A stretch of DNA of 40,165 nucleotides from Chrysochromulina tobinii. Taxonomy: Eukaryota. The position numbers and the translations under genes are program-made. Under the pieces are notes generated by a model, which was not told the DNA's origin, did not search any database, and saw only the letters and a list, made by a program, of their open reading frames with translations. Every line of letters starts with the position of its first letter. Positions within the stretch are counted from its first letter, which is position 1. Positions 2,298 to 28,577 of the stretch are shown here, in pieces. The stretch lies in the NCBI GenBank assembly GCA_001275005.1, contig JWZX01002559.1:1-40165 (forward strand), in the 5' to 3' direction.

Positions 2298-2402
2298 GGC
2301 TGTGAAAATGGGGTCCAGGGGTCCCCGAGCTAGTGGTAACCGCATCCGTATGTACGCCGGTCCGGTGTCTTGGGTGTCGACTTATAACCATTGGCTCTGA
2401 AA
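2298..2402. mobile_element. Short dispersed non-autonomous element, copy 1, bounded by near-identical direct repeats GGCTGTGAAA (2298-2307) and GGCTCTGAAA (2393-2402)
   Basis: Core 2312-2373 matches the reverse complement of 28509-28570 at 59/62 nt by manual alignment. Confidence 0.8.
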
Positions 2403-2763
2403 GGAGTAAGGGCATATGAAAGCGGCCGCCCGCCCCGGCGGTCAATTCAAGTCAAGTCCTGTAATGAGTACAGTTTGTTAAAACTGTTTGGTTTGGGTAA
2501 GGGAGCCCAGCGCCCAGGCCGCGGGTCCGCGAGCTAAGACCTAAGTCGTAAGAAAGTCGAAAGTGGAAACCGCATGCGCATCGTTCGGTTAACCGATAGC
2601 GATTTGATTCGCTTACGGTGTGGCGCGTGGCCGTGGGTCGACAGTCACCGGCCCGGTGTATTTCGTTTGGTGGTGGTGTCAAGTTTCGAGCCATTGGCTG
2701 TGAAGATGATACCGTGCTGTAAGCACACAGTACACACCACTTATCTGGACATCCCTCGACGAG

Positions 2764-5700
2764 TCACGACCACGACACCGAATCTCCGGGCACCAGCACC
2801 CTCGGCAGGCCAGCGGGGCGGTGGCTGTCGCCCGCGACGGCCACAAACGCCAGTCGCAGCGGCTTGCCACTCAGGATCGCGAGCGTGTACCCCGACGCCG
2901 CGCCGCTCAGCCGCGCGACAGTCCCCGGCACGAGCACCGGCAGCTCAAAGGGGATTGGCACCTTCGGTGCGAACGTGAGGTTGCCGGAGCCGAGGGGGTT
3001 GGTGGCGTCGTAGCGCTGACCCGAGAGTGCGAAGACAACGTGCCACGCAACCATATGATAGCCATAGTGCGAGTTGGCGAGCGGTTGGCCCTCAGCGCCG
3101 TAGCCGAGGCCGCCGTGGAGAGCGACCACGTTCCACAAGTCATTGAGCGACGAGCGCCACCACGAGAACGTCGTGTTGAGCACTCCTAGCGCCTCGTCCA
3201 CGTCGCCACCGCGCCAGATGCTGAGCGTCGCCCAATTTGCATTCGCCATCATCCACACGGAGTTGTCCGAGTCGTTGTGGCCGGGGTTGGGACCTGGATA
3301 GGGGTACCGCCCCGTCTGACAGAGCAAGCCGTAGGGCGTGTCGTTCTCGCGCAGCACGGCGCGCAGGTGGGAGGTGACCTGCGCGTCGGTGGTCAGAGTG
3401 CCCAAGCCCAGAGAATCGGCAAGCACCTGCGCGTAGAGTCTCGGGGGTCATCAGAGGCCATCAGAGGTCATCAGAGGTCGTCAGAGGTCATCAGAGGTCA
3501 TCAGAGGTCATCAGAGGTCATCAGAGGTCGTCAGTGGTCGTCAGAGGTCATCAGAGGTCATCAGAGGTCGTCAGCGGTCGTCAACGGTCATGAGCGGTCC
3601 TCAACAAGCACCTGCGCGTAGAGAGCATCGGCCATGATCGCGTCGGCTCCAGTGTAACTCCGATAGAAGCTGCCCGTCGTGTTCCAGAGCAGCTCGTCCA
3701 TCGCAACCCGCCCAACCTCGAAGGCTCGTGAGCACTTAGCAGCGAAGCCGGGGTCGTCCACTGCCGGCGAGAGCGCAAGCTCGGTGGCCGCACGCATCGC
3801 CAGCAGGTGGAACAGTCCCGAGAAACAGGAGACGTTGTACTGTGCGAGGTTGAGGCCATCGTACGTGTCCACCAGCTTGTCAGGTAGCCCAAACTGGGCA
3901 GCCCGGGCGATCTGCCACTGCGCCGCGCGCTTGGCGGTTGGCCAAAGCTCCACCAGCAGATCCTCATTAGCTGTCCACTGCCAGAGCTCGAGCAGGTAGA
4001 CGATGAACATGGAGGTCACATCGCCCATGACGCGCCCACACGGTGCGTCGAGCACAGCAGGCACGCCGGTGTCACATCCGCACGCGAGCTGCTCCTGGAT
4101 CATGCCATCGTCCGTCTGTCCGCTCGCCCACGCACGCATCTTGGACGGGACGCTCTCCGGCCAGAGCATCATGTACGGCACGTGCCGTTCTCCATCATTG
4201 TGCACGCTGTCCACGTTGACGCACGCGAAGGACTCCCACTGGCGCCATCGACCGTCGCGTAGCCACATGGCGCTACGCGTGTGATGCAACGAATTGAGAA
4301 GGGAATCGCCGAGCCAGGTGGGCAACGAGCTCCGACCCTGAGTCCTCCCAGCCAGCACGTTGGCCACCTCGGCCCACGAGGCCACGTCAGCAGCGACCTC
4401 GTCGCCCTCGAGCAGCGTGCGCGCCGCCTGCTCCGAGTCGTTCACCAGACTGGTGTAGTGGTTCCCCACGTCCTTGAGCACAAAGTCACGGTGGGGAAAG
4501 AACCAGCCGAGGGAGATGGTGAGCGAGGCATTTGCGCCCGCGGGCACGCGCAGCTTGACCGCCGCGCCGCCATAGGGATCCGAAGGCTCGAAGCGCGCGC
4601 CGAGCTTGCCCACGCCCTCAAATTCCTTCCACAGCGCCGTGGGGCTGCTCGCGGTGCCCAGGCTGACCACTGGGGCTTCGCGCCTCGGGACGGCGCCATC
4701 GCCGCTCGGGACGGCGCCATTGCCGCTCGGGACGGCGCCATCGCCGCTCGGGACGGCGCCATCGCCGCTCGCGAGCATCTCGACGCTGGCCGACGCACAG
4801 ATGGACACGTTTCCGGAGGCAGCATGTGTGCCCGGGCGCGAGAGCGTGAGGCAGCGCGGGTCGGCGCCTCGTATCCAGGAGCCTTTGGTCCCGGAGGCGG
4901 CGTCGGCGATCGGCGTGTTGCGCGCGGCCGGCACGCTCGAAAAGTTGCCGTGCTGGTAGCAAGAGCCGAAGGCGAAGCTCCATGCGGAGCAGCTCGCGTT
5001 AGCGGTGCAGGCCGCGTGGCACGCGATTGCCGATGGTGGGCGTGGCACAGGCGGCGCTGGGCACTTGGTAACCGTCGACACGTTTTGGAATTTGGAAGGG
5101 TCGAAAGTCGCCTGCGGCTGGCACGTCACGTTGCCAAGCGCGGGCACGGAGGCGTTGAGATAGACGCACGGGCCAGCCCAATAGCTGCGCATCTCGCGCG
5201 CCGACAGGCAGCCCGTGCAGTCGCCCGAGTGGTCTGAGCACGACGGCTCGAAGGTGCCTAGCGATCGGATGACGCCCGTCTGCACCTGGAGAGGCAGCAA
5301 CAAGTAGAATCCCAGTTCGAGCGCGTTGGCCGTTGGGTTGGTCGCAGTGAGCGTGAAGGCGGCACCGGGAACCGCGGAACCCGCCAGGTCGCCCACGCGC
5401 CACTGGGAACGGCCGAACACGGCCAGCTCTAGCCCGACCGGTAGTGAAGGATCCGACGGCACAAGGCGCGAAAACGGCATGGCTCCCGAGAAGTCGAGAG
5501 ACGCGACGCCGGGAAGGCCGTCGGGCGGGTGCGTGCGCAGCAGGCGCGCGTTCTCGAGAAACCCGTCGTTCACCCACACGCCGAGCGCCGCGTCATCCAG
5601 CGTGCTCACCTTGGCACTGCCGGCCGGGGAGTTGTTCTCAATTGTGAAAGAGTGAAGTGTGCCGTCCGCACGCAGCTCCACCGTTCCAGCGGCGAGACCG

Positions 5701-5903
5701 CCCAATGGTGGAGCGCTCCGCATCCCGCTCGGTGGCGGGATCCACGTGACCTCACCGGTACCCGCAGCCGAAGACTTCGAGAGCCACAGGTACTCATGCG
5801 GATGTATTGGCGTAACGTCTCCGTCGGCCCAGGCCCAGATCGCCCGGATCGGGGCCTCAGGCTCCAGGTAGATGGACGGCGACGCACGCATCGAAAAGTT
5901 CAT
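2764..5903 (-). CDS. Glycoside hydrolase family 116 (non-lysosomal glucosylceramidase/GBA2-like); join(5903..3612,3426..2764); N-terminus uncertain
   Basis: GH116-type motifs PPLGGLAAGTVEL..G, GRWRQWES..VDSVH, VDTYD, LLWN.TGSFY, IMADALYAQ|VLADSLG and SHYGYHMVAW. The two ORFs join in frame by removing GT..AG intron 3611..3427. Confidence 0.85.
3427..3611 (-). other. 185-nt phase-0 GT-AG intron filled with a 10-bp tandem repeat; both splice sites lie in a 19-bp direct duplication
   Basis: CAAGCACCTGCGCGTAGAG occurs at 3420-3438 and 3605-3623. On the sense strand it reads CTCTACGCGCAG|GTGCTTG. Removing the intron restores the ORF. Confidence 0.88.
3451..3600. repeat. Minisatellite, about 15 copies of TCAGAGGTCA, degenerating toward 3600
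   Basis: Directly visible 10-bp periodicity. Confidence 0.97.
4684..4771. repeat. In-frame 21-bp tandem repeat x4 encoding SGDGAVP within GH116
   Basis: CTCGGGACGGCGCCATCGCCG repeated four times with one substitution. Confidence 0.92.
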
Positions 5904-6212
5904 GTCGGCGCCCGACGAGGCCGTGGTTGCTGAACGGCAAGCGCTTGAGTGCCTCGAGTAGAGATGGCGTGCCGCTCGCGCGCGCCGCCCCGCCGCACAG
6001 GACTAGGATGAACATGTGCTTCACTGCATCGTGTTCATATGAATACACCCATCACGTACCAACCGAAAACAAAACAAGACTCCCCTATCACCCGATCAAG
6101 TAACCGGTCCCGTGGAGTCACTCCTTAAAAGATTCACGGCACGTTTCGGAACAGGCGATGTTATAAATTCCGCATCCGATTTCCCACACATCGCTCGTGC
6201 AGCACTTTTCTT

Positions 6213-7133
6213 ATGCAGTCCGTGCTGCTTTCACGCCGCGAAGTCGACGCGCTGTACGACTGCGTGCAAGGCGTGGCCGAGGCGCTCGACACCCTCGGCG
6301 CGCGCTGGTGTCTGGTTGCCGGCTCGCTGCTGGGCGCTGTGCGCAGCGGCTCGCTGCTGTTCTGCGACGACGACGTGGACTTGGCCGTGCTCGAGGAGGA
6401 CTACCTGTCTGTGCGGTCCGAGCTGGGGACGCTGCTGCACAGCCGCGGTGTGGGCAGCCTGGTTACGAGGCCCTGGCCCGGCTCGGATCATGTGCGTCCT
6501 GCGCGCTGTACGCACATGTGGTTGGACCTCTTCGTTCTGAGGCGCTTCGAGTCACGAGAGGACCTGGCTGCGTTGCTGCGGGTCAAGGCCAACGGACAGC
6601 CGCAGCCCGCTGGCTACTGCGATGCAATCTTGGCGCGAATAGATGGCGCTTCACCGCGATTCCCACTGTGGCATTACGACAGTCGCAAGGCGATTGAGCT
6701 GTGGCCGTGCGAGTTCTTCGCGGACGCCGAGCTGCTGCCGCTGAGGCGCGACCTGCCTTTTGGCCCGCTCGCGGCGCCCTGCGTGCCGGCGCGCCCTGTT
6801 AGGCACCTGCTGCGCGCGTACGGCGCGGACGTGTTTACGACCTACCGCATCGCCGATAGTCACGTCGACTGGGTCAAGGAGCTGCGCGAGCGCGTGGCAG
6901 CGAGCGGCCTCATCCCTGGCTCCAAGGGGCGGCTTGAGGATGTGCACTTTCTCCCGGTGCAACATTCGCTGCGAGCGCGCCGCGTGGACGCGACAGACGC
7001 GTCGCGATATGGCCGCGCCAAGGTCGAAGCCTTTGTGGCGCGCGAGCTTGAGCTGGACGCAGAACACTGTGACAGACACTGTGAAGGGGCAGCTCTAGAG
7101 TTGAGGACAGAGGAGCGGCAAAGGCATCCTTGA
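6213..7133 (+). CDS. LicD/fukutin-family nucleotidyltransferase-fold protein
   Basis: AGSLLGAVRSGSLLFCDDDVDLAV (LicD GSLLG..R...DDDxD motif), WLDLF, and late LLPL..LPFG..VP..L..YG. Confidence 0.85.
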   Translation: MQSVLLSRREVDALYDCVQGVAEALDTLGARWCLVAGSLLGAVRSGSLLFCDDDVDLAVLEEDYLSVRSELGTLLHSRGVGSLVTRPWPGSDHVRPARCTHMWLDLFVLRRFESREDLAALLRVKANGQPQPAGYCDAILARIDGASPRFPLWHYDSRKAIELWPCEFFADAELLPLRRDLPFGPLAAPCVPARPVRHLLRAYGADVFTTYRIADSHVDWVKELRERVAASGLIPGSKGRLEDVHFLPVQHSLRARRVDATDASRYGRAKVEAFVARELELDAEHCDRHCEGAALELRTEERQRHP

Positions 7134-7186
7134 TTCTTGTGCTCATATGTCATATCCCGTCCGAGACTATACTGTTTCAAATATTA

Positions 7187-8470
7187 TCACCACATATCAA
7201 CAGAAAAATCAAGCGGCCCTGGATGTGGATCGAGCCTCGCTCGCCTTGCTTTCCAGTTGGCTTCGCAGGACCGGATCACATTCTCCGCTACTCGCGATTG
7301 CGGATGCATCCACAGGATGTCTGGTGCATACCTGCGCATCAATGTCAGCCGCTCCTGCATTCTCGTCGTGTTGCTCTCCTCGATTTTGATCTTGTCCTCG
7401 ATCGCCCTAATTTTATGTTTCGCAAACTCATCGGTGCCGACGATTATGGACATTTCCTTCCACGGAATATGCTTTTGAAAGCCAACCGTCGTATCCAAAA
7501 TTGAAGAGCCTAAGAAGACGTTGATCATACCTGCTTCGATCCCGTCATAGATGCGCGAGCTCACAGAATGCACGCCGTGGTCTCCTGGCCATGCCAGATT
7601 GTATTGGCACTTGAGCATGCGGGCCATGGAGGGCTTCGAGAAAGTCTGGTTGAAGTGGGCCACGCAGCCGTCTGACATGAGCTCATCCACAAAGCTGCAC
7701 GGCGACATGTAGCACGGCGAACACAGTTCGGTGACCCCGAGCACGCAAGGTCGTGGGGTTGGCTTTTTGCCGTCCGCACACGGATTTCGCCCCATGCTGA
7801 CTACGGATATTGTAGAGCTCGAGAAGACCATGTTGGAAATATTCCAATTGAACTTGACCAGATGACGACGTGGAACATATGCAACGCCTTGGCCGTGCGT
7901 TGCGCCGCCAAAGTAAACCTTGATCTTTCGGTCGTGCCAATGCGGCACGGATTCAGCTGGGTAGGCCACGAGCGGTATTGGGACCATGTTTTCCTTTGGA
8001 ATGCCCGTTTCGTGGTAGAAAATGGCAGTTGTGATCTGCTTCCCCCAGCACATGTTGCGCATGAGAGCATCATATGATTTTGTGGGTGCGTGGCAGTCTG
8101 TCAAGACCATGATGTGATCTGACCCCTTCCTGCGCCGGTACCACGGCGATGCCTCAAGGAAGCTTGTGAGGAAGTTGACGTTGCGTTTGGTGGCGTTTTC
8201 TCCGCCGCAAAGGCCGCGTGCATTCAGGCCTAGGTAGGCGGCTACGACGAATGTGCTCGCCTTGGCGGGGTCTTGTGTACGCCGTGGGTGTTGTGCAAGG
8301 TGCAACGGCCATAAAATCTCTGCACCGTGCTGATACAAGCTGGGCTCAAGTGGACTCTGGTCCGTGCCTGCGACCGAACTGAGTCGAGATGTGACCGACT
8401 TGTTGCACGCGGCGTTGAAGTAGCTCCACGTCTCCTCGTACATGTAGAATGGCGCGATGATTGCCGCCAT
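7187..8470 (-). CDS. Exostosin-like glycosyltransferase (GT47)
   Basis: RTQDPAKASTFVV, PWYRRRKGSDHIMV, VYFGG, PGD....SSRIYDGIEAG and F..IPW motifs. Confidence 0.78.
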   Translation of the reverse strand: MAAIIAPFYMYEETWSYFNAACNKSVTSRLSSVAGTDQSPLEPSLYQHGAEILWPLHLAQHPRRTQDPAKASTFVVAAYLGLNARGLCGGENATKRNVNFLTSFLEASPWYRRRKGSDHIMVLTDCHAPTKSYDALMRNMCWGKQITTAIFYHETGIPKENMVPIPLVAYPAESVPHWHDRKIKVYFGGATHGQGVAYVPRRHLVKFNWNISNMVFSSSTISVVSMGRNPCADGKKPTPRPCVLGVTELCSPCYMSPCSFVDELMSDGCVAHFNQTFSKPSMARMLKCQYNLAWPGDHGVHSVSSRIYDGIEAGMINVFLGSSILDTTVGFQKHIPWKEMSIIVGTDEFAKHKIRAIEDKIKIEESNTTRMQERLTLMRRYAPDILWMHPQSRVAENVIRSCEANWKARRARLDPHPGPLDFSVDMW

Positions 8471-9099
8471 GGCCCCTCGCCGAAAGCGCCGAACGACGCG
8501 AAGCGCCTACCGGTACCGGTACCGGTAAAAAGACACCGGGGAGCCGGGGCGGGTTCGCTCGGGGCGTGGACAACACACGACAGTCAAGAGAGGACTACTG
8601 GCTAACTTTGACAGCGGGCGGTTAGACCTCTCACACTAGCTCCTAAGTTTCCGTGTTTCCGTACCGCGTGTACGAAGCTCGAAGGTACAACAGATGAATC
8701 AGAAGATAATGCAGAATCAGCTGCTCGGTTTAAGTTTAGTTCATAAGCCATGTCATACACTAAGTTAAAACTACACACGAATCACGAATGCTCAATACAA
8801 GTACGTACAGTAGGGCATGCACATGCATGGTGTTGTTTAACACCGTTGAGGAACAGGGGTTCGATCCAGGGGCAACACGCCAAGGTCAGCGACGCCATCA
8901 CCAGAGGCACTCCCAAATGAGCCGTCGCATGCCACGGTTGAACACAGATTCCTAAAAGGGGCGGCGTGGGGTTTGCGGAAAGCTCAGCGCGGGCGATGCC
9001 CTGAGCACTCCGGTTTCGCTCACGCTCGAGTATGACGCCGGGTGCACGCGCTCGTCACCCTGAGCAGCTGTGCCACCCCCAACGTCCCACGCCAGCGCG

Positions 9100-11037
9100 C
9101 TAGCGAACGAGCACGTTTCGGAACTGCCATGGGTCGGAATCGTCGATGTCTTCCGGGAAGAGCCCAGGCCTGCTGGAGAGGGGAGTCCAGTCGGTGTAAT
9201 AGCCCTTGACGGTGCCGAGGTAGGGCTTCTGGATGTTCAGGCAGGCGCGGTAGTCCATCTCATCGGACTCGACGATGCCGGCGCTCGGGTTGGTGAGCGC
9301 CCAGGCCATGCCAGCGAGAATGGCCGAGGTGACCTGCAATCCGGTCGCGTTTTGGTAGGGCGCGAGCTCCCGCGCCTCGTCGATCGAGAGCTGCGAGCCA
9401 TACCAGTAGGCGTTCTTGGCATGGCCGAAGACAAGGACGCCGAGCTCGTCGCTGCCGTCGACGATCTCGTCCTCGTCGAGCACATGCTTCTCCTCCTGGG
9501 GCCTGCCGGCGCGCCCAAACATCTCGTGCAACGACAGCACCGCGTCGTTCGTCGGATGGTAGGCATAGTGGCAGGTTGGTCGGTAGGCGACGGCAGAGCC
9601 GTCACGGACGGTGAAGTAGTCGGCGATCGAGATGGCTTCGTTGTGGGTGACGAGGAAGCCGAAGTACGCCTCCGACGTCGGGCACCAGGTGCGAACGCGG
9701 GTGTTCGCTCCGGGCTGCAACAGATAGGCTCCGACCTTGGTGCCGATCGTCATCAGTCGGGCGTTCTCGGGCAGCCACTTTTCGTGCGTGCCCCAGCCGA
9801 GCTCGGCTGGCTGCAGCCCTTCGGAAATGAAGCCCTCGACCGACCAGGTGTTGAGGAAGACGTTCATCGGCTTGGGGCTCCGGCTGCGCTGGGTGTCCCT
9901 CTCGGCGATGTGTACGCCCTTGACACCCAACTCGCGCATGAGCTGTGCCCACCCCTCGCGGTCGTCCGGCCCCGGCTCAATGAAGGCATGGCCCGTATCG
10001 TGGGCGATGTCGCAGAGCGCTTGCTTGAGGAGCCACGACACCATGCCGGGATTCGCGCCGCAGCAGGAGACCGCCGTGGGCCCGCCCGGGCTCCGCGCCT
10101 TCTCCTCTCGCAGCGCGCTCCGAAGGACATTATTCGTGCGCTGCTCGGGTCCAGCGCCCTTGTCAAAGTAGAAGCCCTGCCAGGGCTCGACGACGGTATC
10201 GATGTAGAGAGAGCCGAGCTCGCGGCAGAGCCGTATGATGTCGATCGAGGAGGTATCGACTGAGACGTTGACGCAGAAGCCCTGCCCGCCGCCCGCGGTG
10301 AGCAGCGGCGTCAGCACCTCGCGATAGTTCTCTTGCGTGATTGCGACCTGCTCGAACCGAATGTCGCGCTCGTCGAGCAGGCGCCGGTGGCGGTCACTTG
10401 GGTCGATGACGACGAAGCGGGATGGGTCGTAGTCGAAATGCCGCTCGAGCATGGGCAACATGCCTTTGCCGATGGAGCCGAAGCCGATCATCACCAGGGG
10501 ACCCTCGATCCTGCCGTGCTTTGGCCATGGCCAGCTGTCGGTCGCCACAGCGGTGCGCCCACTAGATGTGTCGCTACTGTCTGATAGACTGTCACTTGAT
10601 GCGTTGGTGAGACCCCCCTCACGGCTCGATGTGTCGGTCTCCATCTTTAACGACGGTAGCCCCACAAAGGTTGAGTCGTGAGGGGGGTAGCTCCCAGAGA
10701 GCGGGGCGATGGGAAGATGTTCTTGCGCGCAGTCTCTATGACAGTCTTCTTCATCCGGAGGTTCTTCATCCGGAGACTCCGGCTCGGGAGTCGATTGCTG
10801 GCCCTGGCGCGCATCCATGATGCGGCCGCGGCGCTTCTGGAGAAGAGCGGGACCGCCGGATCGTAATGATATGCAATCAGCCATCATTTGACGAGATTCC
10901 TTCGGTGCTCGCTTTTTGGCGCAAAATTTGGTGAACTCATGAACAAGTTCATTCCGGGCGGCAGAGTCGCGCGGAATGTTTGAACGAAAGGCAAGCCGAA
11001 GGCTAGATCCCGCTTGCAGGCCGAGACAGCGAGACAT
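9100..11037 (-). CDS. hss: Bacterial-type homospermidine synthase with an ~170-aa low-complexity N-terminal extension (true start uncertain)
   Basis: Domain from ~10530 onward: GPLVMIGFGSIGKG (Rossmann), VNVSVD, LYIDTVVEPW, SCCGANPGMVSW, HIAERDTQ, FLNTWSVEGF, YRPTCHYAY, QNATGLQV, and C-terminal DDSDPWQF. Confidence 0.93.
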   Translation of the reverse strand: MSRCLGLQAGSSLRLAFRSNIPRDSAARNELVHEFTKFCAKKRAPKESRQMMADCISLRSGGPALLQKRRGRIMDARQGQQSTPEPESPDEEPPDEEDCHRDCAQEHLPIAPLSGSYPPHDSTFVGLPSLKMETDTSSREGGLTNASSDSLSDSSDTSSGRTAVATDSWPWPKHGRIEGPLVMIGFGSIGKGMLPMLERHFDYDPSRFVVIDPSDRHRRLLDERDIRFEQVAITQENYREVLTPLLTAGGGQGFCVNVSVDTSSIDIIRLCRELGSLYIDTVVEPWQGFYFDKGAGPEQRTNNVLRSALREEKARSPGGPTAVSCCGANPGMVSWLLKQALCDIAHDTGHAFIEPGPDDREGWAQLMRELGVKGVHIAERDTQRSRSPKPMNVFLNTWSVEGFISEGLQPAELGWGTHEKWLPENARLMTIGTKVGAYLLQPGANTRVRTWCPTSEAYFGFLVTHNEAISIADYFTVRDGSAVAYRPTCHYAYHPTNDAVLSLHEMFGRAGRPQEEKHVLDEDEIVDGSDELGVLVFGHAKNAYWYGSQLSIDEARELAPYQNATGLQVTSAILAGMAWALTNPSAGIVESDEMDYRACLNIQKPYLGTVKGYYTDWTPLSSRPGLFPEDIDDSDPWQFRNVLVR

Positions 11038-11143
11038 TACAATTGTATAACTCTCAGGGGCATGCTCAGGGGCGGTGGATGTTGAGGCGGTCAGAGATGG
11101 CGGTCGCTAAGGCCGCGAGAGTATCACAAATGGTCGGCGGCGT

Positions 11144-11237
11144 CGGCGCGTCAGTGGGGTCCCCAGGGGGCGCACAGCTCACCACGGCGCGTCCCAGTGG
11201 GGTAGGTCCCCGGCTCACCACGGCGCGACTCAGTGGG
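11144..11237. repeat. Three imperfect direct repeats of (GCTCACCA)CGGCGCG..CAGTGGG between the DnaJ 3' end and hss
   Basis: Copies begin near 11144, 11177 and 11213. Confidence 0.7.
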
Positions 11238-12214: not shown

Positions 12215-12290
12215 CTTTGAGACTGACCTTTCGTCTTCCCGCCAGTTGCTGAATGCGTCAAACTGCGAGCGGAACTCTGGAGCCACAGAT

Positions 12291-17011: not shown

Positions 17012-17324
17012 GTCTGTCGGCTTAAGCTGTCGGCATGTGTGTGTGTGTGTGTGTGTGAAACAGACGATGCGTGCGCCGTCGTCTCGTCTGCCAGCGGCCA
17101 ACCAGCGGCCCGGCAGCCAGCAGGAATCCAGGCTTATCCAGGCGGCTCCGTCTAGGCTCGTCCAAAGCACCCAAAGTCAAAGAAAAGGGAAATGTGTTTA
17201 ATGGAAACGATAATTGTTCTGTGCATGCGGAGAAGTTGTTTCTACCCAAGTGAGACTTGACTTGATACTTGACTTGTTTGACTTCTTCACAGCCAATCGA
17301 AAAACCTTGCCCCTTCACACGCAA

Positions 17325-18422
17325 ATGGCCTCCGAGGTCGTGTTGCCTTCCGCTGGCAAAGGTGAGTTCCCACGGCTGCAAGACACGCTCGCGCAAGTCG
17401 AGGGCTTGCTTGCGCGCGCGGCCGCTGGCGTGGCACCCGACTCGGCAGACTCGGATGCGCTGGCGGCGCACTTCGAGGCGAAGCAGCTGATCCAGGAGAT
17501 GAGCGAGCGCGCTGGCGTCTTCGAGAAGCGCGCGCGCGAGCCGGATCCCGATAAGCGCATCTACGGCCCCAAGATGGCCCAAAAGGTTCTCGAATTCATC
17601 GACGCGCTGCAGGCGGCTAGCGAGCACGCTGAGGAGCTTGATGAGGCGTTAGCGCCGCTGCGAGCTCGGCTGGCTGCCGCGGCAGTCGCGGCGGCCGCGG
17701 CGGTCGCGGCGGCCGCCGAGGCCGTCGCGCAGGCGGAGCGCGAGGCCCTGGCCGCCGCCGCCGCCGAGCAGGCCGAGCTCGACGAGGAGGTGCGGCTGGC
17801 CTCGGAGCGCGCAACGGTGGAGCGCGCAGCGGCGATCGCGCGCCCGCTAGGCAGCGGCAGCGGCGATGCCTCTTTCCAGCGCTTGGAGGCGGCCGACACA
17901 GTCGACGCGCTCGGCCGCCGCAAGCTCATAGCCGACCTGTCGCTCACGCAGTCTCTTGAACTTCTTGAGGGCAGCTGCGAGTGTGCCGAGTTCGCGAGCG
18001 CGCTGCAGGCGCTGCACCTGCTCTGCGCGAACATCGTCGCGCGGCCCGAGGAGGCGCTGTTCCGCAAGGTGCGGCTCCTCAACGCCTCCTTCCAGCAGAC
18101 TGTCGCGCGCTACCCGGGCGGCGTCGAGGCGCTGCTCGCGCTCGGCTTTGAGGAGAGCGAGACACTTGAGGGCGATGAGGAGGCGGTCTGCTACGTCCTC
18201 GAGGAGCCAAACCTCGAAGAGGACATCGAGCGCTGGGGTCGCTGGTACGATGGGATTAAAGCGCACCAGGCCGAGCTGCTCGGACGCATGGAGGCCCACG
18301 GCGTGCGTGCGCTGCCGGTCGCGGCCAAGGGCACCGGCTGGGCGGAGGGCATGGCCGCGCCAGCGCCCGCGCGACCGGCGGACAATTTGACTCTGCACGG
18401 GCAGCGAGGCGGTGGGATTTAA
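17325..18422 (+). CDS. PUB-domain protein
   Basis: ATG at 17325. PUB motif LCANIVARPEEALFRKVRLLNASFQQTV..YPGGVEALLALGF. Confidence 0.82.
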   Translation: MASEVVLPSAGKGEFPRLQDTLAQVEGLLARAAAGVAPDSADSDALAAHFEAKQLIQEMSERAGVFEKRAREPDPDKRIYGPKMAQKVLEFIDALQAASEHAEELDEALAPLRARLAAAAVAAAAAVAAAAEAVAQAEREALAAAAAEQAELDEEVRLASERATVERAAAIARPLGSGSGDASFQRLEAADTVDALGRRKLIADLSLTQSLELLEGSCECAEFASALQALHLLCANIVARPEEALFRKVRLLNASFQQTVARYPGGVEALLALGFEESETLEGDEEAVCYVLEEPNLEEDIERWGRWYDGIKAHQAELLGRMEAHGVRALPVAAKGTGWAEGMAAPAPARPADNLTLHGQRGGGI

Positions 18423-20505: not shown

Positions 20506-20821
20506 AGTCGCGGGGCGCTCTCCGAATGTTGACTCTTCCCGGCACTTCACCGCACGGTGTGTCGGTCGAGTGTCGAGACGGTCGGGCCGCGTCGCGGCGC
20601 GAACTGGCCCCGCTATAGTACCGCGCGCGCGTGCGGGGGTAGAGCCCCCGCGTCCGGGCCCGGCGCGTTCCGGCGCGTTCCGGCTGGCGCGAGACCGGGA
20701 GAGCGCGCCTCTGGGTCCGCCGGCGGCGGCGCCCCGCGGCGCGTTAGCTTCTCTTTTATCAGCTTCTTGTGTGACAGTGCGCATAGTACACGACTTCGAT
20801 TACCAACACACGGCCGGCAGA

Positions 20822-21262
20822 CTACATCGGTCCGGTACTGTTGTAGCTGTCCTCTAGCTCGCGTAACGCCGCACGCATCTCGCTCTCCACACGTGCAAGC
20901 CGCTGCTCACCATCTGAGGCGAATGCATTATGGGCGGCAGCGACGGCCTGCGTTTCTGTGCGTATGATCTTGTGATCCCCGACTACTGTGTCTCGCCTCA
21001 GCTCGTCGGTGAGCTGCATTAGATTGTCGGTGAGCTGCACGATGCCTGCGGCCAGCACGGAGGTACGTAGCTCGCCGATTTGCTGCCTCACCTCATCCTC
21101 CACCTGACCCCCACGCAACAGTTCGCTGTACTGGTCGAGCAATGTAGACGAACCGTCCTTGAGCCGCGTCAGGCGCGACTGCTTCGCAATCGTGTCCGAC
21201 TCCGCCAACCATTCGAGCGCGCCCCGTGGCGGTGCAACGCCGCTGCTCGATGAAGACCGCAT
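20822..21262 (-). CDS. MED22: Mediator subunit 22 (Surfeit locus protein 5 family)
   Basis: Size (146 aa) and pattern RL.D....LLDQYSELL..GQV ... AAGIVQLTDNLMQLTDELR..TVVGD, with terminal LRELEDSYNS resembling the Med22 ELE.xYYSS end. Confidence 0.65.
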   Translation of the reverse strand: MRSSSSSGVAPPRGALEWLAESDTIAKQSRLTRLKDGSSTLLDQYSELLRGGQVEDEVRQQIGELRTSVLAAGIVQLTDNLMQLTDELRRDTVVGDHKIIRTETQAVAAAHNAFASDGEQRLARVESEMRAALRELEDSYNSTGPM

Positions 21263-21394
21263 GCGCTCGAGGAAAAAGGTCAGACCATACGGAACGCGTG
21301 ATTTGCCTAGACTTTGCCTTGACGAGACTCGCCTTCACACCAGTCTCGCCCCTCGTTCCCTCCCTCACGAGCGTGACCTTGACTGGGATGCGGA

Positions 21395-22786
21395 ATGATG
21401 GCGAAGCGTCTTTCTTCGCATGCCCTGCTCCTCCTGCAGCTCCTACACACATGCTGTGCACGAATGCGTCCGACCGAGCGCGAGGCGCTCGTCGCACTCT
21501 ATGCTGCCACAGACGGGGGCAGCTGGCTACGGAAAGAGCACTGGACGACCAACAACGCTATCGGCGATCCTTGTCGGGCATTTTCCAAACGCTTGCAGTA
21601 CCGCTTCAATGATTACGCGACAACTCCCTTCGTTCCCGGCGCACGCATCGAAGCGACGCCCTGGCATGGGGTCGGCTGCATCGACCCGTGCGACGACTAC
21701 CTTGACGGCCCGGGGTGCACTGCTGGCCGTGTCACCGGACTAGCGTTACGCAACAACAACCTGCGCGGCAGCCTCACCGGCTGGCACGGCGTCGGCCAGA
21801 TGACCAACCTGACACATCTGGACGTGTCCCACAATTTGCTAAGCGGCGTGCTCCCGACGCAGCTCGGACGCATCAACCACGTTGAACTGCTCTCGTTTCG
21901 CGCCAACCAGATCTCCGGGCTGCTACCTCCTGAGATGGCGAGAGTGAATTCCAACGGCGTAGGTTCGCTGCGCGAGCTGTCGATCAATCTCAACCGAATC
22001 AGTGGCATGCTGCCCTCCGAGCTCGGGCTGCACGCAGCCTCTCTCCAATTGCTTGACGTTAAGGTCAATCGGCTGAGTGGCACAATACCGCAGCAGGTAG
22101 GCCAGTTGCAACGGCTCGAGGCGCTCCAGCTTCAGAACAATTCCCTCTCGGGCACGATTCCCGTCGATTTTGGGCTGGTACCTGCAACTGGCGGCGGGGA
22201 CGGTGGTGACGGCCTCATGTACGACGCGCCGCCCGCACCTCCGGGTGGTCTGCAGCACCTTCGATACCTCGAGCTGCATAACAACGCGAGGCTCTCGGGC
22301 ACGCTACCGCCGTCGCTGCAGTACGTGGGCCTCAACCTGGGGCTCGCAGTGCCCGAGATGCGCCATAGTTTGCGCCACCTGCACCTCGGGAGCGCGCGCC
22401 TCTCGGGCACGATCCCGACAGAGCTTGGAAGGCTCACAGAGCTCACCTCGCTCAAGCTCGACGCAAACCGTCTCTCTGGTACGATCCCATCAGAGCTGGG
22501 GCTGCTGCGCAAGCTCGAGACGCTCGACCTGTACGACAACCCGCTGCAGGGCGACGTGCCCTCGGAGCTCGCCCGCCTGATCAACATTCGGCTCTTCTAC
22601 ATCCCCAACCAAAACCTGCGGCCGCTGCGCATGCACTACTGCGGCCAGCGCCTGCCGAACGTCGGCAAGTACAATTACCGCATCGTGCGCGAAGAGTTCA
22701 TGCGCATGGCGACGTCTATCTGCCCCGAGCCGCTCGACACCCTCGGCACCTTCGGCACGCTCGCTGAGCTCTCGGGCGACATTTGA
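21395..22786 (+). CDS. Secreted or surface leucine-rich repeat protein (plant-type LRRs)
   Basis: Hydrophobic signal-like N-terminus, cap EREALVALYAATDGGSW..W, and repeated L..L.L..N.LSGTIPSELG. Confidence 0.9.
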   Translation: MMAKRLSSHALLLLQLLHTCCARMRPTEREALVALYAATDGGSWLRKEHWTTNNAIGDPCRAFSKRLQYRFNDYATTPFVPGARIEATPWHGVGCIDPCDDYLDGPGCTAGRVTGLALRNNNLRGSLTGWHGVGQMTNLTHLDVSHNLLSGVLPTQLGRINHVELLSFRANQISGLLPPEMARVNSNGVGSLRELSINLNRISGMLPSELGLHAASLQLLDVKVNRLSGTIPQQVGQLQRLEALQLQNNSLSGTIPVDFGLVPATGGGDGGDGLMYDAPPAPPGGLQHLRYLELHNNARLSGTLPPSLQYVGLNLGLAVPEMRHSLRHLHLGSARLSGTIPTELGRLTELTSLKLDANRLSGTIPSELGLLRKLETLDLYDNPLQGDVPSELARLINIRLFYIPNQNLRPLRMHYCGQRLPNVGKYNYRIVREEFMRMATSICPEPLDTLGTFGTLAELSGDI

Positions 22787-22986
22787 GCCCGCACGCCCGC
22801 GGGGCCCAACTCGCAAATTCTGAGCGACGCCCTTCGTACGCGGCTTACCCCGATAATTTGCGGTGGTACTGTGTCGATGTCTCAGGAGTGTGAGAAGAGA
22901 CGTACAGACTCTTTACGCGGCCTAAAGTTTAGCTTTCGGCAGCCGGCCATATCACGCGCGTCCGCCGGTCACGGTCAGCCGAGCTA

Positions 22987-23394
22987 CTATAGTGCGTCTG
23001 GCGTGATTGTTAGCGTCAGGTTCTTAACATCTTTCACGGACAGGTTGTTCCCCTTGCCGCAGCGTAGCCCGCATTCCGGCGGGAACCAGACGCGGAGTGG
23101 GCCACCTTGCTGCAGCGGCTGGTTGCCGATGGCATCTGTGTGCATCAGTATGCCGAGCACCAAGTGCTCAAATGCGATCGGTTCAGTCTGCATCCCATCG
23201 CCTGCGATGAATACGCCAGTGCCACTCTTGGCCGCGCCGAGAAGGGCACGGACGCTGCATCCCTTGTAGCCCGCAAATTTCTCATCTGTCACCGGCACTT
23301 CGCACAAGTCGAGCGCATATAATTGGTCCAGCGGTACTTTTGAGCTGCTGTTGCTTGTAACTCCATTGACGAGACGTCGACGAGTAACCTCCAT
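22987..23394 (-). CDS. Small oxidoreductase molybdopterin-binding-domain-like protein
   Basis: F.GYKGCSVRALL, FIAGDG, QPLQQGGPLRVWFP and SVKDV..L.L, matching the Oxidored_molyb-like pattern. Confidence 0.6.
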   Translation of the reverse strand: MEVTRRRLVNGVTSNSSSKVPLDQLYALDLCEVPVTDEKFAGYKGCSVRALLGAAKSGTGVFIAGDGMQTEPIAFEHLVLGILMHTDAIGNQPLQQGGPLRVWFPPECGLRCGKGNNLSVKDVKNLTLTITPDAL

Positions 23395-23508
23395 TCCTCG
23401 GCCTTCGAGAAGAATGATTCCTTGGCGTGAATCGAGCTACGCCGCGTTGAATACGTGAGGCGTGGCACACATCGAAGTGCTCGAAGGTCGGCCGCGTGTG
23501 AACAACCT

Positions 23509-23518
23509 TTGGCTGTGA

Positions 23519-23552
<34 letters not shown>

Positions 23553-23564
23553 TTGGCTGTGAAC
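23509..23564. repeat. (AAGC)8 microsatellite flanked by a perfect 12-bp direct repeat TTGGCTGTGAAC
   Basis: Repeats at 23509-23520 and 23553-23564; the insert 23521-23552 is exactly 8 units. Confidence 0.95.
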
Positions 23565-23879
23565 GTGTGCTCAGCATCACAGTTCTCGGTTGTGGGTCCG
23601 TTGACGTTCCCCTCAGAAACCCCCAGGGTAGGGAGGGTGGGACACGACAACAACAACAAACACGACGGCGTACTTTACCGGTTACCGCAACTCGCGAGTT
23701 CAACTCCGCTCGGCTCGGCGGCCGCGCCGTAGGTTCGAGCCGAGCGGGGCGGGGTGTTCCTGGAGGAGGGTGGGGTCCGACCATTGGGTCCGACCTCCGA
23801 GTGCGGACCGGAGAGGCACGCCTGGGGGTGGTATTAAAGATAAGCTAGACTTCAGAGCTAAACTACCTAAAAACTCAGC

Positions 23880-26316
23880 TTAAAACCTGTTGATCAAGCT
23901 ACGGAACTTCTTCTCAATTGTCTTCTGCCTCTGTGGAGCGGGCGCAGGCGGCCTTGCGCCCACCGGATCCTCGTGATGATCATCCTGCGACGCGCACCTT
24001 TTTCGTCGAGGGTCGAGGTTGGCGGGCTTGGGGCTGCCGTCCGCAGCCAAACCGGGGCGTCCTCGGGGCAAAGCGGCCTTGTTCTTTGGTGGAGCAGCCT
24101 CGTCCCATTGCCGGGTGCAGCCAAAATACTCCAAAAACTCGCACTTGGTGTAGGCGATGCCGTCTGGCGCTGTTCGCCTCTCCACTGGCTTCTTAGGTTT
24201 GTTCGGCTTGGCGATGGATGGACTGGACTGCGACTCCATATTAGGCCACTCGCCCGTCTTGGGCCGACTGGTCTTCTCTGAGCCGAGCACCGACGACAGT
24301 GAAGGCGGCCGTGGCGGCGACGGTGCACTAGCAGCCGCCGCCGACTGCGCCCGTGGCACCTCGCTGCTCTGCGGTGGTGGCGGCGAGTCGGCTTGCGGCG
24401 GAGGCTTGCGGCGGTAGAGTACCAAGCTAATGTGGCGCTCATCGGAGGTGAGAGTAATCCTATCTGCACTCACATAGCGCAGCTGGCCGTTGGCCTCGAG
24501 CCCATCATACCGGTAGCTCGCCTCGCCCAACGGCTGGCGCCCACGATGGCGCCCACTCGCCTCGCGCCTCCGTTTAAAGTGGCCAGATGCGACAATGTCG
24601 GCCCACCAGTGGCCGCCGTCGTTGTAGACGACGGCCGCAGCGGTGTACTCCTGCCGCTCGCCGCTCATGTCGAGCGTCATCGAAGCTGCCACCTGCGGCC
24701 GCCAGGGCAGCTTACTTGCCGCGACGGCGCCGCCGGTCACGCCGCCGTCGATGCGGCCGAGCTCCACGAGGAGCAGCTGCGAGTAGATAGGCTGCTGGTG
24801 GCGCAGCCGCAGATGGCCCATGCCGCACTGCGGGCAGATGCAGTAGTTGTACGGATTCGTCGACAGGTGCGCCGCTATTAGCTGCCCCACCTGCAAGCAA
24901 CGAGGGGCAGGGGGAGGGAGAGAGGGGCACGTAAGGGCTAAGGGCTGTCACGCGTAAGGAGGCGATACGAAGTTTCTGCGCGGAGGCTGCGGGATGGTGG
25001 GATACGGCGTGCAGCCTCCATCATGCTGCCGTGGTCAGCCAGGATCGGGGACCTCGGAAAGAGAGTTAAAAGGATTCCCCAGTGAGGTCGGAATTAGCAT
25101 GGTCGTTTCCTCGTCATGGGACCCCGAGCCGCTGGCATGCACCGGCAGCGTGCATGCGGTGTGCGTGGGCCTGGTAGCGTGCCTGCGGTGTGCGTGGGCT
25201 GGCTGGCGTGTGGTCTCGACGGCTCACCTCGGCGGCCACGCCATGGCGCAGCAGGGCAGCGACGTCTGCCGCCTGCAACAGCAACGGCAGGTGCGCCGTG
25301 TGGGTGGACGCGCGGTACGTGTAGTCGCAGTCGGCGCACTGCCAGACGGCAAGGGTGCGGAAGTGGAAGGGCGACTCAGAGACGCTGTTGGGCAGCAGAT
25401 GCGCAAAGAACTGCTCCATGACCCCAAAGCAATGGCCCATCAGGCACGGCGTCTTGCACGGGCAGCGCGGGCACTTGACGCACAGACCACTGAGGCAGTT
25501 GGGGCACGAGCAGAAGCAGCGGCACTCGACGCACTCGGGCTGCGCAGGTGGGTCCACCAGTGGCCCGGCACCTGGCTTTGCATGTCTATTCATAGTCACA
25601 CGTTGCGTGTCCACCGACGGCCAGGCGTCCGCCGACGAGCGTGCCGACGATCTACTGCTGCTGTTACGACGGGCCTTGCTGCTGCGCGGGGCGGTCGCGC
25701 CCTCCCGAGAGCGGACGCCCACGACGACGACGTCATCGTCGTCGTCATCGGCTTCGACGGGGCGGCAAAGGTACCTAAACCACTTGCGCTTGGCAACCTC
25801 GCTCGACTTGCCCTGCCGCAGTACCTTCAGTGCCGCACGAAGCGCGGTTATGGGGTTGGGAGAGGCTGCGTGCGCTGAAACGCGGGATGTACATGATGCG
25901 CATGAGGAGCAGCAGCAGGAGCAGGAGGAGGCTGAGGTCGCAGATGATGTTGAGGCAGGAGCCAGTAGCCGCCTCTCTTTGGACGTAAGCGCGTGCTGCA
26001 TGAGCGTCAGGAAGGTGTCGACCGCGCAAGTGTTACGTGGCCCATACGCAACACCAACGAGTGGATGCAAAAACTTGCGAGGCCTGAGCGACGTGCCGGC
26101 CCACGCATTCGCCTTCATTTTCGCCTTGGGTGGCGGCAGCAATGGCAGGTCGCACGTGCCATGCCGGCCCGCCACTCCTGGCCGGCGGCCGGAACCAGCA
26201 ATGACGGCGAGGCCCGCGAAGGGATTGAGCGCCTCTGCCGCATCCCGCACACGTCGCGGACGCTTGTTCATACGCGATGGAAATGCGGGCGTCCATGCTC
26301 TTGCGCGCTTTGACAT
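23880..26316 (-). CDS. Divergent ubiquitin-specific protease (peptidase C19-like); join(26316..25228,24890..23880)
   Basis: Exon 1 has Cys box GVAYGPRNTCAVDTFL..MQHAL and CxxC (WQCADC). A phase-0 intron GAG|GTGAGC..TTGCAG|GTG joins it to exon 2, which has CPQC, LLLVELGR, His box YTAAAVVYNDGGHWWADI, YRYDG and SLVLYRR. Confidence 0.68.
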
Positions 26317-26432
26317 GGTCCACGTCGCCCCCGACCTCGTCAACGCCCGCACTCTGTGTGACTGTGAACACTAAACTCGCTTAATGCGTTTGCCTCACAC
26401 ACAGGAAGGCGGTGCCGGGCCCTCCACACAGA

Positions 26433-28445
26433 TCACGGATGATACTTGCCGAGCACCGTTTTCGCGAAGCTCCTAGGTCGCAACTTCTTGCAGCTCCCCT
26501 TGCAGTTGCCCTCCAACATATCAACGGGCAGGTAGTCGGGATGCGCGGGCACGGGGCCCCGGAATGGCGTCACTGGCGGTCGCGTTGGCCAGCCGGTGAA
26601 CTCGATGCCCACCTTGTACTCCGCCCGGATCTCGCGCATGCGCTGCGCCTCCGGGCAGTACAGTTTCATGTGGTTCCAAGTGCGCCAGTTCCAGCGCCAG
26701 CACTTGTGGCAACCCATCGGGATGAAGTGCGGCCAGTCGCACTTAGTCTTGGCCGGCTTGGGGGACGGGTTCCACTTGCGCGGCTTCCCGCGCTCCTTGG
26801 CGCCTGGATCGTACTCGGGTCCCGTGTAGTAGTTGGCTGTGCACCCCTCGGGCCTCGCCGGGTCATCGCCAGGCAGCACGTCCATTTGAAGGTCGTACTC
26901 GACCGCGAATTGGATCGCGTCGAATCGCGAAGGCTTGTGCACGCGGATGCCGGCGTCGGCGCACCGCTTCTCGAGATACTTCCACATAGTGCCCAGTTGC
27001 TGGTCCTCGAGCTTGCCTGCGGCGGGTGTGATGCACTGAGGCGTGCGGCACATTTGAATGGCCTTCGCACGGTTGCGCAGCGAGAAGCCTCCACACCCGA
27101 CGCTCCACTGTGAGTCGTGATCCGAGGTCATCCACCAAGGGCCGGCCATCGGCGCCCCGACATAGTCGTACTGCACGTACTCGCCGATCTTATGCGACGA
27201 GGCGGCGCACATGATCGAGTCCGGCTGAAAGACGAGCGCCACCTCTCCGTTGACCGCCTCCCAAAAGCTGTCGATGAGCATCATCGAGGAGAGCCGTTGC
27301 CAGTCTTCCATGTAGTCGGAGCCCAGGTCGGTGAAGCTGATCTGGCCGCGCGCCGACAAGTCGCCGAAGAGCTCCTTCAGCTTCGGACCGTTGCTCGGAC
27401 CGTGAAACAGCTGTATGGGCCAGCCCGTGTGATTGTGCACATTGTGCACAACGTAATGTTGCAGCTTTGGGCGCCACGAGGTATCCACCATGATCGCCAC
27501 GTGCGGGCGCACGGGCTCGGGGGCCTTCGGCAGCACAAGCGTCTCGAGAAAGTGGATGTCTTCGTCGCACAACAGTGGCTGACCCATGAGCGAGCAGTGG
27601 CGTTTGAAACGCGTGTACGGCTGATAATGCGCACAGCCTTCGACGATCACGGCCAGCGTCTTAATCTTGCCTTTGCACGGGTCGTCCTTGAAGTTCTCGG
27701 TGTTCACCGGCAGGCAGCAGTGCGAATTGCCCACGCATGCATTCTCGACGATGCGCGCAGACTTGAGTGAGTGGCACTCAGGGTTGACTGCCACGGAGCC
27801 GTTGGGGCTCACAAGGGGCATGCCAAAGGACGCGAAGCTCACCCGCGTCACGACGGTGCCGGCGCCACACTCGATGGCAAGCGAGCCGCCCTGAGGGATG
27901 ATGTGCGTCTGCGCGCCTGTGGTCGAGTAGTCAGTGATGGAAATGGTCTTCGTCAACGTTATCGAGGCGCGGCGCTCACGGCGCCGACGCTTTTCTTCCC
28001 TGCGCCACGCGCGCCCACCACCTCGTCGAGCCGGCTCCGCCTCGATCATTGTGAGTCTGCGCTTAAATGGGGCGCTTCCTATCGAAGACGACTTGAGTGC
28101 TGCATCGGCGCTCAGTCGCCGATCAGTGCCGCTGAGTGGCTCCAAATTCGTATCACCGGGCGTCAACACTGTGCCTGATGCTGAGACGCTGGATGGTGTT
28201 GGGCTCAGCGGCGGCGCATGGCGCAACCGTGGCGCGACATGGGAGCTGACGACAAAGCCCACGGCAATTGCAGGTATGATGCACAGAAGCACGATGGTAC
28301 CGCCCCAGATGACGGAGGTTGGAGACTGCTTCCATGCGGCTGCCTCTGGAGCCTTCATCAACAGCTCGTCGCCGTCGTCATTGTTATCGTCATCGTTGAG
28401 ATCTCGGCATCGATCCCGCGGCGCAAAAGGACCTGTCCCATCCAT
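26433..28445 (-). CDS. Type II membrane protein with a SUEL/galactose-binding lectin domain and a DUF5672 (glycosyltransferase-like) domain
   Basis: TM segment IVLLCIIPAIAVGFVV. Lectin CGAG..V.FASFG..CHS..CVG..C.LPV..F.DDPC.G..K.LAV. DUF5672 LVFQPDSIMC..YDYVGAP..W..VGCGGFSLR. Confidence 0.82.
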   Translation of the reverse strand: MDGTGPFAPRDRCRDLNDDDNNDDGDELLMKAPEAAAWKQSPTSVIWGGTIVLLCIIPAIAVGFVVSSHVAPRLRHAPPLSPTPSSVSASGTVLTPGDTNLEPLSGTDRRLSADAALKSSSIGSAPFKRRLTMIEAEPARRGGGRAWRREEKRRRRERRASITLTKTISITDYSTTGAQTHIIPQGGSLAIECGAGTVVTRVSFASFGMPLVSPNGSVAVNPECHSLKSARIVENACVGNSHCCLPVNTENFKDDPCKGKIKTLAVIVEGCAHYQPYTRFKRHCSLMGQPLLCDEDIHFLETLVLPKAPEPVRPHVAIMVDTSWRPKLQHYVVHNVHNHTGWPIQLFHGPSNGPKLKELFGDLSARGQISFTDLGSDYMEDWQRLSSMMLIDSFWEAVNGEVALVFQPDSIMCAASSHKIGEYVQYDYVGAPMAGPWWMTSDHDSQWSVGCGGFSLRNRAKAIQMCRTPQCITPAAGKLEDQQLGTMWKYLEKRCADAGIRVHKPSRFDAIQFAVEYDLQMDVLPGDDPARPEGCTANYYTGPEYDPGAKERGKPRKWNPSPKPAKTKCDWPHFIPMGCHKCWRWNWRTWNHMKLYCPEAQRMREIRAEYKVGIEFTGWPTRPPVTPFRGPVPAHPDYLPVDMLEGNCKGSCKKLRPRSFAKTVLGKYHP

Positions 28446-28485
28446 CTCGCGATCCGCGTCAAGTTTGCTCCCTTCATTCGGAATT

Positions 28486-28577
28486 CACAGCCATTGTTTA
28501 TAACTCGACCAAGACACCGGACCGGCGTACATACGTGTGCGGTTACAACTAGCTCGGGGACCCCTGGACCACAGCCA
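28486..28577. mobile_element. Short dispersed element, copy 2 (inverted relative to copy 1), with an 8-bp direct repeat CACAGCCA
   Basis: CACAGCCA at 28486-28493 and 28570-28577; core matches copy 1 at 59/62 nt. Confidence 0.82.

What the first reader, a model, noticed from the sequence alone, without database searches (positions are those of the whole stretch)
2298..28577. Candidate sequence-specific insertion system targeting TTGGCTGTGAA/TTCACAGCCAA next to genes
Seen: the motif or a close variant occurs in intergenic DNA at 2298, 2391, 2694, 17286 (rc), 23509, 23553, 28484 (rc) and 28570 (rc). A fixed 11-mer would be expected well under once in 40 kb. At three loci it is directly duplicated around different cargo: the ~85-bp element twice and a bare (AAGC)8. 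Removing insert 2 restores TTCACAGCCAAT, identical to the single copy at 17286-17297. In a common orientation, one junction always falls within ~2 nt of the start of TGGCTGTG while duplication length varies (8, 10, 12 bp). Most sites are ~30-115 bp upstream of a start codon. Established: a fixed first nick with variable TSD length is typical of target-primed reverse transcription by site-specific non-LTR retrotransposons. Inference: an unidentified enzyme targets a CCAAT-containing promoter-like motif as a safe harbour and delivers several cargo RNAs.
Basis: partly seen in the sequence, partly recalled or inferred. Interest (0 to 1): 0.9.

Follow-up and report, generated by a model that had tools for sequence, protein, structure and literature searches.

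The report
Algal retrotransposon aimed at promoter word
The repeated motif is the tail end of many truncated copies of one R2-like jumping gene in an alga; it sits at the six-letter word TGTGAA, which is also the commonest word just ahead of predicted gene starts, so the element likely targets a host promoter signal rather than carrying varied cargo.

Summary
The motif is real (4 exact copies against 0.015 expected), but it is not a target duplicated around cargo. In 120 metagenome loci it is the fixed 3' end, TTGGC|TGTGAA, of one element with variable 5' ends. The 'upstream copies' at 2298 and 28570 are internal element sequence, and 17286 is a 21-nt insertion, not an empty site. Longer copies run into an ORF. 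Locus L076 holds a 2.8-kb 5'-inverted copy 92-98% identical to an intact 1,540-aa protein with zinc-finger patterns, reverse-transcriptase motifs and a C-terminal domain; a homologue of that domain folds like the R2 endonuclease (Z 13.5). The true duplication is TGTGAA plus 0-5 nt, mode 8 bp, seen at 30 of 57 ends. TGTGAA is the commonest hexamer within 100 bp upstream of called start codons (32 of 143 genes far from any copy; shuffled mean 6.7). Verdict: a CRE-like, restriction-like-endonuclease non-LTR retrotransposon with an apparently new kind of target. Target-primed insertion is well supported; promoter function of the word is inferred. No empty allele was found, and no RT phylogeny was run.

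The parts
2275..2280 (+). Left target word TGTGAA of copy 1 (left duplication; the right copy reads TCTGAA)
   Evidence: element sequence starts directly behind it
2281..2401 (+). Copy 1: 5'-truncated 3' UTR of the retrotransposon, about 115 nt plus the end word; 2298-2306 is the internal look-alike of the end
   Evidence: same locus filled in L008, L027, L087
2420..2704 (+). Copy 3: old, diverged copy with several insertions, ending ATTGGC|TGTGAA
   Evidence: colinear blocks against a real copy (L014), but 11 of 1,000 shuffles score as high, so the 5' extent is tentative; 3' end clear
17286..17319 (-). Copy 4: ultra-short insertion (21 nt ending TTGGC) between two TGTGAAG; the left word ends 6 nt ahead of the ATG at 17325
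   Evidence: PUB-domain gene downstream
23497..23519 (+). Copy 5a: ultra-short insertion resembling the last 10 nt of the element, between two TGTGAAC(AA)
23520..23564 (+). Copy 5b: second ultra-short insertion, (AAGC)8 then TTGGC|TGTGAAC; the repeat is inferred to be junction filler or slippage, not a cargo RNA
28484..28580 (-). Copy 2: 5'-truncated 3' UTR, about 95 nt; 28570-28578 is the internal look-alike; no upstream TGTGAA in the 400 nt examined
   Evidence: same locus filled in L057

Best explanation
The motif sites are 3' ends of 5'-truncated copies of one non-LTR retrotransposon that encodes a reverse transcriptase and a restriction-like endonuclease and that likely inserts by target-primed reverse transcription at the genomic word TGTGAA. 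Shown: a fixed 3' end (...CATTGGC) followed by TGTGAA or a one-letter variant; 5' ends from 11 nt to 2.8 kb; a duplication of TGTGAA plus 0-5 nt; continuity of the short copies with the end of the ORF; an intact 1,540-aa ORF in public data. Inferred: the protein nicks the bottom strand at the 5' edge of TGTGAA, the freed 3' end primes copying of the element RNA, a second nick about 8 nt on gives the duplication, and copying usually aborts within 10-300 nt. In L076 the second-strand end appears to have primed internally (twin priming), inverting the ORF. Because TGTGAA is concentrated in the 100 bp ahead of gene starts, in both orientations, insertions fall in promoter-proximal DNA. That the word is a host promoter element, and that the element gains shelter or transcription from it, is inferred and untested.
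For: Fixed 3' and ragged 5' ends across loci. 30 of 57 distinct 3' ends have TGTGAA within 30 nt of the aligned 5' end, against about 1.6% per 40-nt window by chance. The base after the left word equals the base after the right word in 24 of 30 (shuffled mean 8.7, maximum 19 in 10,000), two bases in 18 of 30 (3.6, maximum 11). 38 of 52 core-bearing copies end in TGTGAA and 13 more in a one-letter variant; L020 carries the variant TGTGGAAA on both sides. The base before the left word is G in 20 of 30, where the element has C, so the preference reaches outside any RNA homology. L076: 8-bp duplication around an inverted ORF, with TGAAC microhomology at the inversion point. P0300 is 92% (residues 650-1378) and 98% (1378-1540) identical to L076 and up to 100% to the ORF ends of short copies. 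RT motifs QGCVLS and FVDD/YVDD; Atlas neighbours RVT_1 at 0.94; homologue P0248 RVT_1 E 8.6e-8. Model of homologue P0133 (pLDDT 80.7) matches R2 at Z 13.5 (rmsd 4.2, 217 aligned) and 12.4, next row 6.5. Word enrichment: 32 of 143 genes at -100..0, 13 at -200..-100, 2 at -500..-400, 7 of 142 after stops (Fisher p 2e-5), 17 in each orientation.
Against: No empty allele among the loci, all of which were picked for being filled. 27 of 57 ends lack a nearby left word (19 none, 8 further than 30 nt; three of these are cut by contig ends and one is the inverted L076 copy), and 2 of the 30 hits are neighbouring element ends; some ends are strain orthologues counted twice. Direct Pfam support for the RT is weak (E 0.032; none for P0121), PDB sequence hits are weak (E 0.02-0.7) and Foldseek gives R2 only at E 0.16. 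The folded domain is a 43-52% identical homologue, not the element's own. The CCHC knuckle usual before this endonuclease is missing. Gene starts are crude single-ORF calls; at least one window start looks mis-called. Element ends are not significantly closer to starts than other non-coding TGTGAA words (19 of 32 against 82 of 201, p 0.056).
Confidence: 0.88

Rival explanations
1. Same retrotransposon, but the specificity comes from RNA-DNA pairing: the RNA itself ends in UGUGAA and only nicks beside a complementary word get primed, with a loosely specific endonuclease.
For: The end word is nearly constant even in copies without a left duplicate; whether the transcript includes the word cannot be told from DNA.
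Against: G is preferred before the target word (20 of 30) where the element has C; L020 shows a variant word on both sides, so there the right-hand word came from the target.
Confidence: 0.25
2. The element targets TGTGAA, but the word has no promoter role: its pile-up near starts reflects old duplications left by decayed insertions, and the location of copies reflects open chromatin and selection against coding insertions.
For: 0 of 32 ends lie in called coding regions against 81 of 282 other words, as selection would give; every insertion adds a copy of the word; the loci were chosen for holding the element.
Against: The peak holds in genes more than 1 kb from any copy (32 of 143), is narrow, is far weaker behind stop codons, and the words show no TTGGC remnant ahead of them.
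Confidence: 0.3
3. One reading: an enzyme targets an 11-bp CCAAT-type motif and delivers several different RNAs.
For: One 12-bp direct repeat around (AAGC)8 at 23509-23564.
Against: The 11-mer is element end plus target word; of 56 distinct TGGCTGTGAA sites 40 had the element core upstream, and the other 16 were internal look-alikes or short sequences with no second shared cargo family. CCAAT is not enriched.
Confidence: 0.03
4. A rolling-circle (HUH) or tyrosine-recombinase DNA element that recombines at TGTGAA.
For: Such elements also show one fixed end and short terminal direct repeats (recalled; Replitron paper seen only as a search listing).
Against: The duplication extends past the shared word into target bases; the linked ORF is an RT with an R2-like endonuclease; a 5' inversion with an intact duplication fits RNA-templated insertion.
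Confidence: 0.02

Closest known systems
CRE clade non-LTR retrotransposons (CRE1/2, SLACS, CZAR; MoTeR, FoTeR, Cnl1)
   Same: Single ORF with 1-2 zinc fingers, RT and restriction-like endonuclease; variable duplications; many truncated copies (passages of PMC12278014 and PMC12857005). The RH...E...D...E spacing roughly fits the pattern quoted in PMC12857005 (RHH, E after 23 residues, AVD for R/KPD, E after 16; read).
   Different: Target is a dispersed 6-7-nt word near gene starts, not spliced-leader genes or telomeric repeats; no poly(A) tail; no CCHC knuckle. Clade membership was not tested by a tree.
R2 retrotransposons
   Same: Endonuclease-domain fold (Z 13.5 and 12.4 for a homologue); fixed 3' and variable 5' junctions, as described for R2 and Utopia (passage of PMC4640811).
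   Different: R2 inserts at one site of the rDNA; sequence identity in the structural match is only 9-10%.
HERO, Togen and other microsatellite-preferring RLE families; relaxed crocodilian Utopia
   Same: RLE elements with short or weakened targets spread over a genome (passages of PMC4640811).
   Different: Their targets are microsatellites or U2-like sequences; here a non-repetitive word that is the top hexamer ahead of gene starts, with clear duplications.
Dictyostelium TRE5-A and yeast Tf1/Ty elements that insert next to genes in compact genomes
   Same: Promoter-proximal insertion in a gene-dense genome (TRE5-A: search listing only; Tf1/Ty recalled).
   Different: Those are placed by tethering to transcription complexes at a set distance (recalled); here the duplicated DNA itself is the shared word.
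L1 twin-priming 5' inversions
   Same: Inverted 5' part, small deletion at the inversion point, intact duplication (L076); twin priming is cited for L1 in PMC6895275 (passages).
   Different: One case only, in an RLE-type element rather than L1.

Membership tests
RLE-type non-LTR retrotransposon | Reverse transcriptase domain | tested here: met
   Motifs in P0300 and L076; Atlas RVT_1 clusters 0.94; homologue P0248 RVT_1 E 8.6e-8 and aligned to P0300 at E 3e-14; direct Pfam hit weak, E 0.032
RLE-type non-LTR retrotransposon | C-terminal PD-(D/E)xK restriction-like endonuclease | tested here: met
   Conserved RH, D, ExK in alignment; homologue model matches R2 at Z 13.5, then PD-(D/E)xK nucleases
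RLE-type non-LTR retrotransposon | Fixed 3' end, 5' truncation, no terminal repeats, target duplication | tested here: met
RLE-type non-LTR retrotransposon | CCHC zinc knuckle ahead of the endonuclease | tested here: not met
   Only one Cys ahead of RHH in P0300; not conserved in 31 homologues
CRE clade | Single ORF with one or two N-terminal zinc fingers | tested here: met
   P0300, 1,540 aa, C2H2-like patterns at 120 and 159; pattern match only
CRE clade | RT phylogeny groups with CRE1/2, SLACS, Cnl1, MoTeR | not tested
   No named reference RT came back from the searches; the likeness of motifs to CRE is recalled
CRE clade (trypanosomatid sense) | Insertion in spliced-leader RNA genes; poly(A) tail | tested here: not met
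   Flanks are unrelated single-copy sequences and no A tail precedes the target word
SINE or other non-autonomous cargo | Own 5' head (tRNA, 5S, 7SL) distinct from the LINE | tested here: not met
   No tRNA or Rfam match at the copies; 5' ends run into the LINE ORF
Replitron / Helitron / Crypton | HUH or tyrosine-recombinase ORF linked to the ends | tested here: not met
   The linked ORF is RT plus RLE

The most novel reading that the evidence does not exclude
An early-branching RLE retrotransposon lineage of haptophyte algae has swapped the usual multicopy-gene target for the host's own main proximal promoter word, TGTGAA/TTCACA. Each insertion keeps the word by duplicating it, so the element shelters in promoters while seeding extra copies of a regulatory site, and its junctions reveal an undescribed haptophyte promoter element.
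Probability: 0.4. Interest if true: 0.75.

Novelty: new variant of a known kind. Interest (0 to 1): 0.55.

Why it matters
Known target-specific RLE retrotransposons use rRNA, snRNA, tRNA or spliced-leader genes, telomeres and microsatellites (passages of PMC4640811). A family that reads a dispersed six-letter word at gene starts would be a new target class and a new way to live in a compact genome. It also points to a candidate promoter motif in haptophytes, and adds a divergent R2-like enzyme, lacking the usual zinc knuckle, for work on how target-primed insertion recognises DNA. The target is too short and frequent to be a single safe harbour.

Tried and rejected
No whole genome is held, so genome-wide counts rest on 575 kb of non-redundant loci (67 sequences). 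Viral-contig scans: one chance match in a phage gene and no duplicated motif. Of 120 metagenome loci, L059 is a tmRNA and L115 a near-identical short locus; both were dropped, with L001. Structured-RNA idea rejected: folding z-scores -1.8 to +1.9, no Rfam or tRNA match at the copies. Single-sequence fold of P0121 failed (pLDDT 33.7). Read depth over the element (peak 70,910 against 47.9 nearby) shows many copies but is no copy number; away from the bait, 9 ends in 440 kb (about 20 per Mb). Orientation bias near starts (14 antisense, 5 sense) is not significant (p 0.064). Element pieces in RNA libraries are contigs and do not show transcription. Earlier scan findings: four look-ups, nothing. 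Ten literature searches listed no paper on this family or on TGTGAA in haptophyte promoters; Repbase and Dfam were not available, so a deposited family name cannot be excluded.

Full report
Setting. The window is GC-rich eukaryotic DNA with ordinary genes and no mobile-element ORF among the 22 ORFs scanned. Its FolD protein has Prymnesium parvum as nearest named relative (68%), and runs holding it are mixed-culture and freshwater samples. A haptophyte host is inferred; 'Chrysochromulina-like' is my recalled guess, not a result. No whole genome is held.

Observation. All eight sites are present and the 11-mer is far above chance. The two ~85-bp inserts are 95% alike over 62 nt. Contigs of run X13 pile up on this stretch (297 laid; depth peak 70,910 against 47.9 nearby), so it is a high-copy family.

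What the motif is. A scan with a 19-nt core returned 120 loci (about 170 estimated in all). After dropping two chance matches, the copies share a 3' end reading CATTGGC then TGTGAA, followed by unrelated flanks, while their 5' ends vary. Of 56 distinct TGGCTGTGAA sites in loci and window, 40 had the core upstream; the other 16 were internal look-alikes, very short 3' fragments or diverged copies.

The real target. Among 57 distinct 3' ends, 30 have TGTGAA within 30 nt of the aligned 5' end, against about 1.6% expected per 40-nt window; 19 have none and 8 have it further away. Two of the 30 are neighbouring element ends, and some strain orthologues are counted twice. The duplication continues past the word: first base shared in 24 of 30 (shuffled mean 8.7), two bases in 18 of 30 (3.6). 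Lengths are 6-11 bp, mode 8. To the left the match usually stops at once, and the target has G at -1 in 20 of 30. In a separate count, 38 of 52 copies end in TGTGAA, 13 in a one-letter variant and 1 otherwise; L020 has the same variant on both sides. Re-read this way, 17286-17319 is a 21-nt insertion between two TGTGAAG, and 23497-23564 is two stacked ultra-short insertions. (AAGC)8 is best read as junction filler or slippage (inference); 4 of the 5 (AAGC)3+ arrays found are not followed by the motif.

The enzyme. Longer copies run without a break into the end of an ORF. In L076 the 3' 100 nt lie in one direction and 2.7 kb of ORF in the other, inside an 8-bp duplication, with about 30 nt missing and a TGAAC microhomology at the switch. 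This is the layout of twin priming, known from L1 (PMC6895275, passages); the reading is my inference from one case. The ORF has one frameshift. A cluster member, P0300, is an intact 1,540-aa version, 92% and 98% identical over the two L076 frames and ending in the same residues as the short copies. It has two N-terminal zinc-finger patterns, RT motifs and RH, D and ExK motifs. RT support: weak Pfam hit (E 0.032), Atlas neighbours of RVT_1 (0.94), a homologue with RVT_1 at E 8.6e-8, weak PDB hits to telomerase and L1 ORF2. 355 representatives score E up to 0.001, and none of those looked up carries an informative name. A model of the C-terminal part of homologue P0133 (43-52% identical; pLDDT 80.7) has R2 as top match by Foldseek (E 0.16) and by VIA-align (Z 13.5 and 12.4, next 6.5). 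The CCHC knuckle is missing.

Why near genes. With crude codon-scored gene calls (216 genes in 575 kb, introns ignored), TGTGAA on either strand occurs within 100 bp upstream of 32 of 143 starts lying more than 1 kb from any copy, against 13, 7, 6 and 2 in the next four 100-bp windows, 2 inside coding sequence and 7 of 142 after stops. It is the commonest hexamer there, ahead of all 89 anagrams (median 3); shuffles give 6.7, at most 16; 17 genes carry each orientation. Element ends: 0 of 32 in called coding regions, 19 within 300 bp of a start, not significantly more than other non-coding TGTGAA words (p 0.056). So the word's own distribution is enough to place the insertions. An insertion would break an ORF call, so the zero in coding regions is partly built in. 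That the word is a promoter element is inferred.

Mechanism. Shown: ends, duplications, ORF linkage, domain content. Inferred from established TPRT biology: bottom-strand nick at the 5' edge of TGTGAA, priming on the RNA 3' end, second nick about 8 nt on, early abortion, repeated insertion into the duplicated word.

Comparison. It works like CRE- and R2-type site-specific elements and meets the RT, RLE, single-ORF and junction features. It fails the CCHC, poly(A) and spliced-leader features, and no tree was run, so it is 'CRE-like', not filed as CRE. Papers: PMC4640811, PMC12857005, PMC12278014, PMC6895275, PMC10088271, PMC5963040 and PMC5029228 were seen as passages only; the rest as search listings; no supplements were read. 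Ten searches listed no description of this family or target; Repbase and Dfam were not searched.

Verdict. Observation partly confirmed, interpretation partly supported. A known kind of element with an apparently new kind of target: new variant, interest 0.55.

Noticed in passing
window 3421-3623: Probable intron in the GH116 gene (minus strand) made of a 10-nt tandem repeat and bounded by a 19-nt direct duplication of exon sequence spanning the splice point; suggests intron gain by duplication or insertion. Only one such array in the 67 sequences checked.
   Followed up: partly
window 28592-28745: About 155-bp MITE-like insert with inverted (GAGT)n/(ACTC)n ends and a 9-bp direct repeat CCTTCTTTC, directly at the 5' end of copy 2; found only here and in the orthologous L057.
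   Followed up: partly
window 2275-2310 versus L008 3430-3460: The same insertion site has different 5' element sequence in two populations: gene conversion between copies or two independent insertions.
   Followed up: no
L032 and L056 near the match; L003; L079: Stacked insertions: new copies inserted into the duplicated TGTGAA of older ones, giving head-to-tail runs.
   Followed up: partly
proteins P0139, P0140, P0243: Full-length 1,400-1,630-aa relatives at 25-33% identity, all lacking the CCHC knuckle and carrying an insert in the RT: an unnamed lineage whose targets were not examined.
   Followed up: no
window 17254-17283 and 2446-2458; L012, L014: (AAGTC)n repeats recur beside insertion sites; relation to the element unknown.
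   Followed up: no
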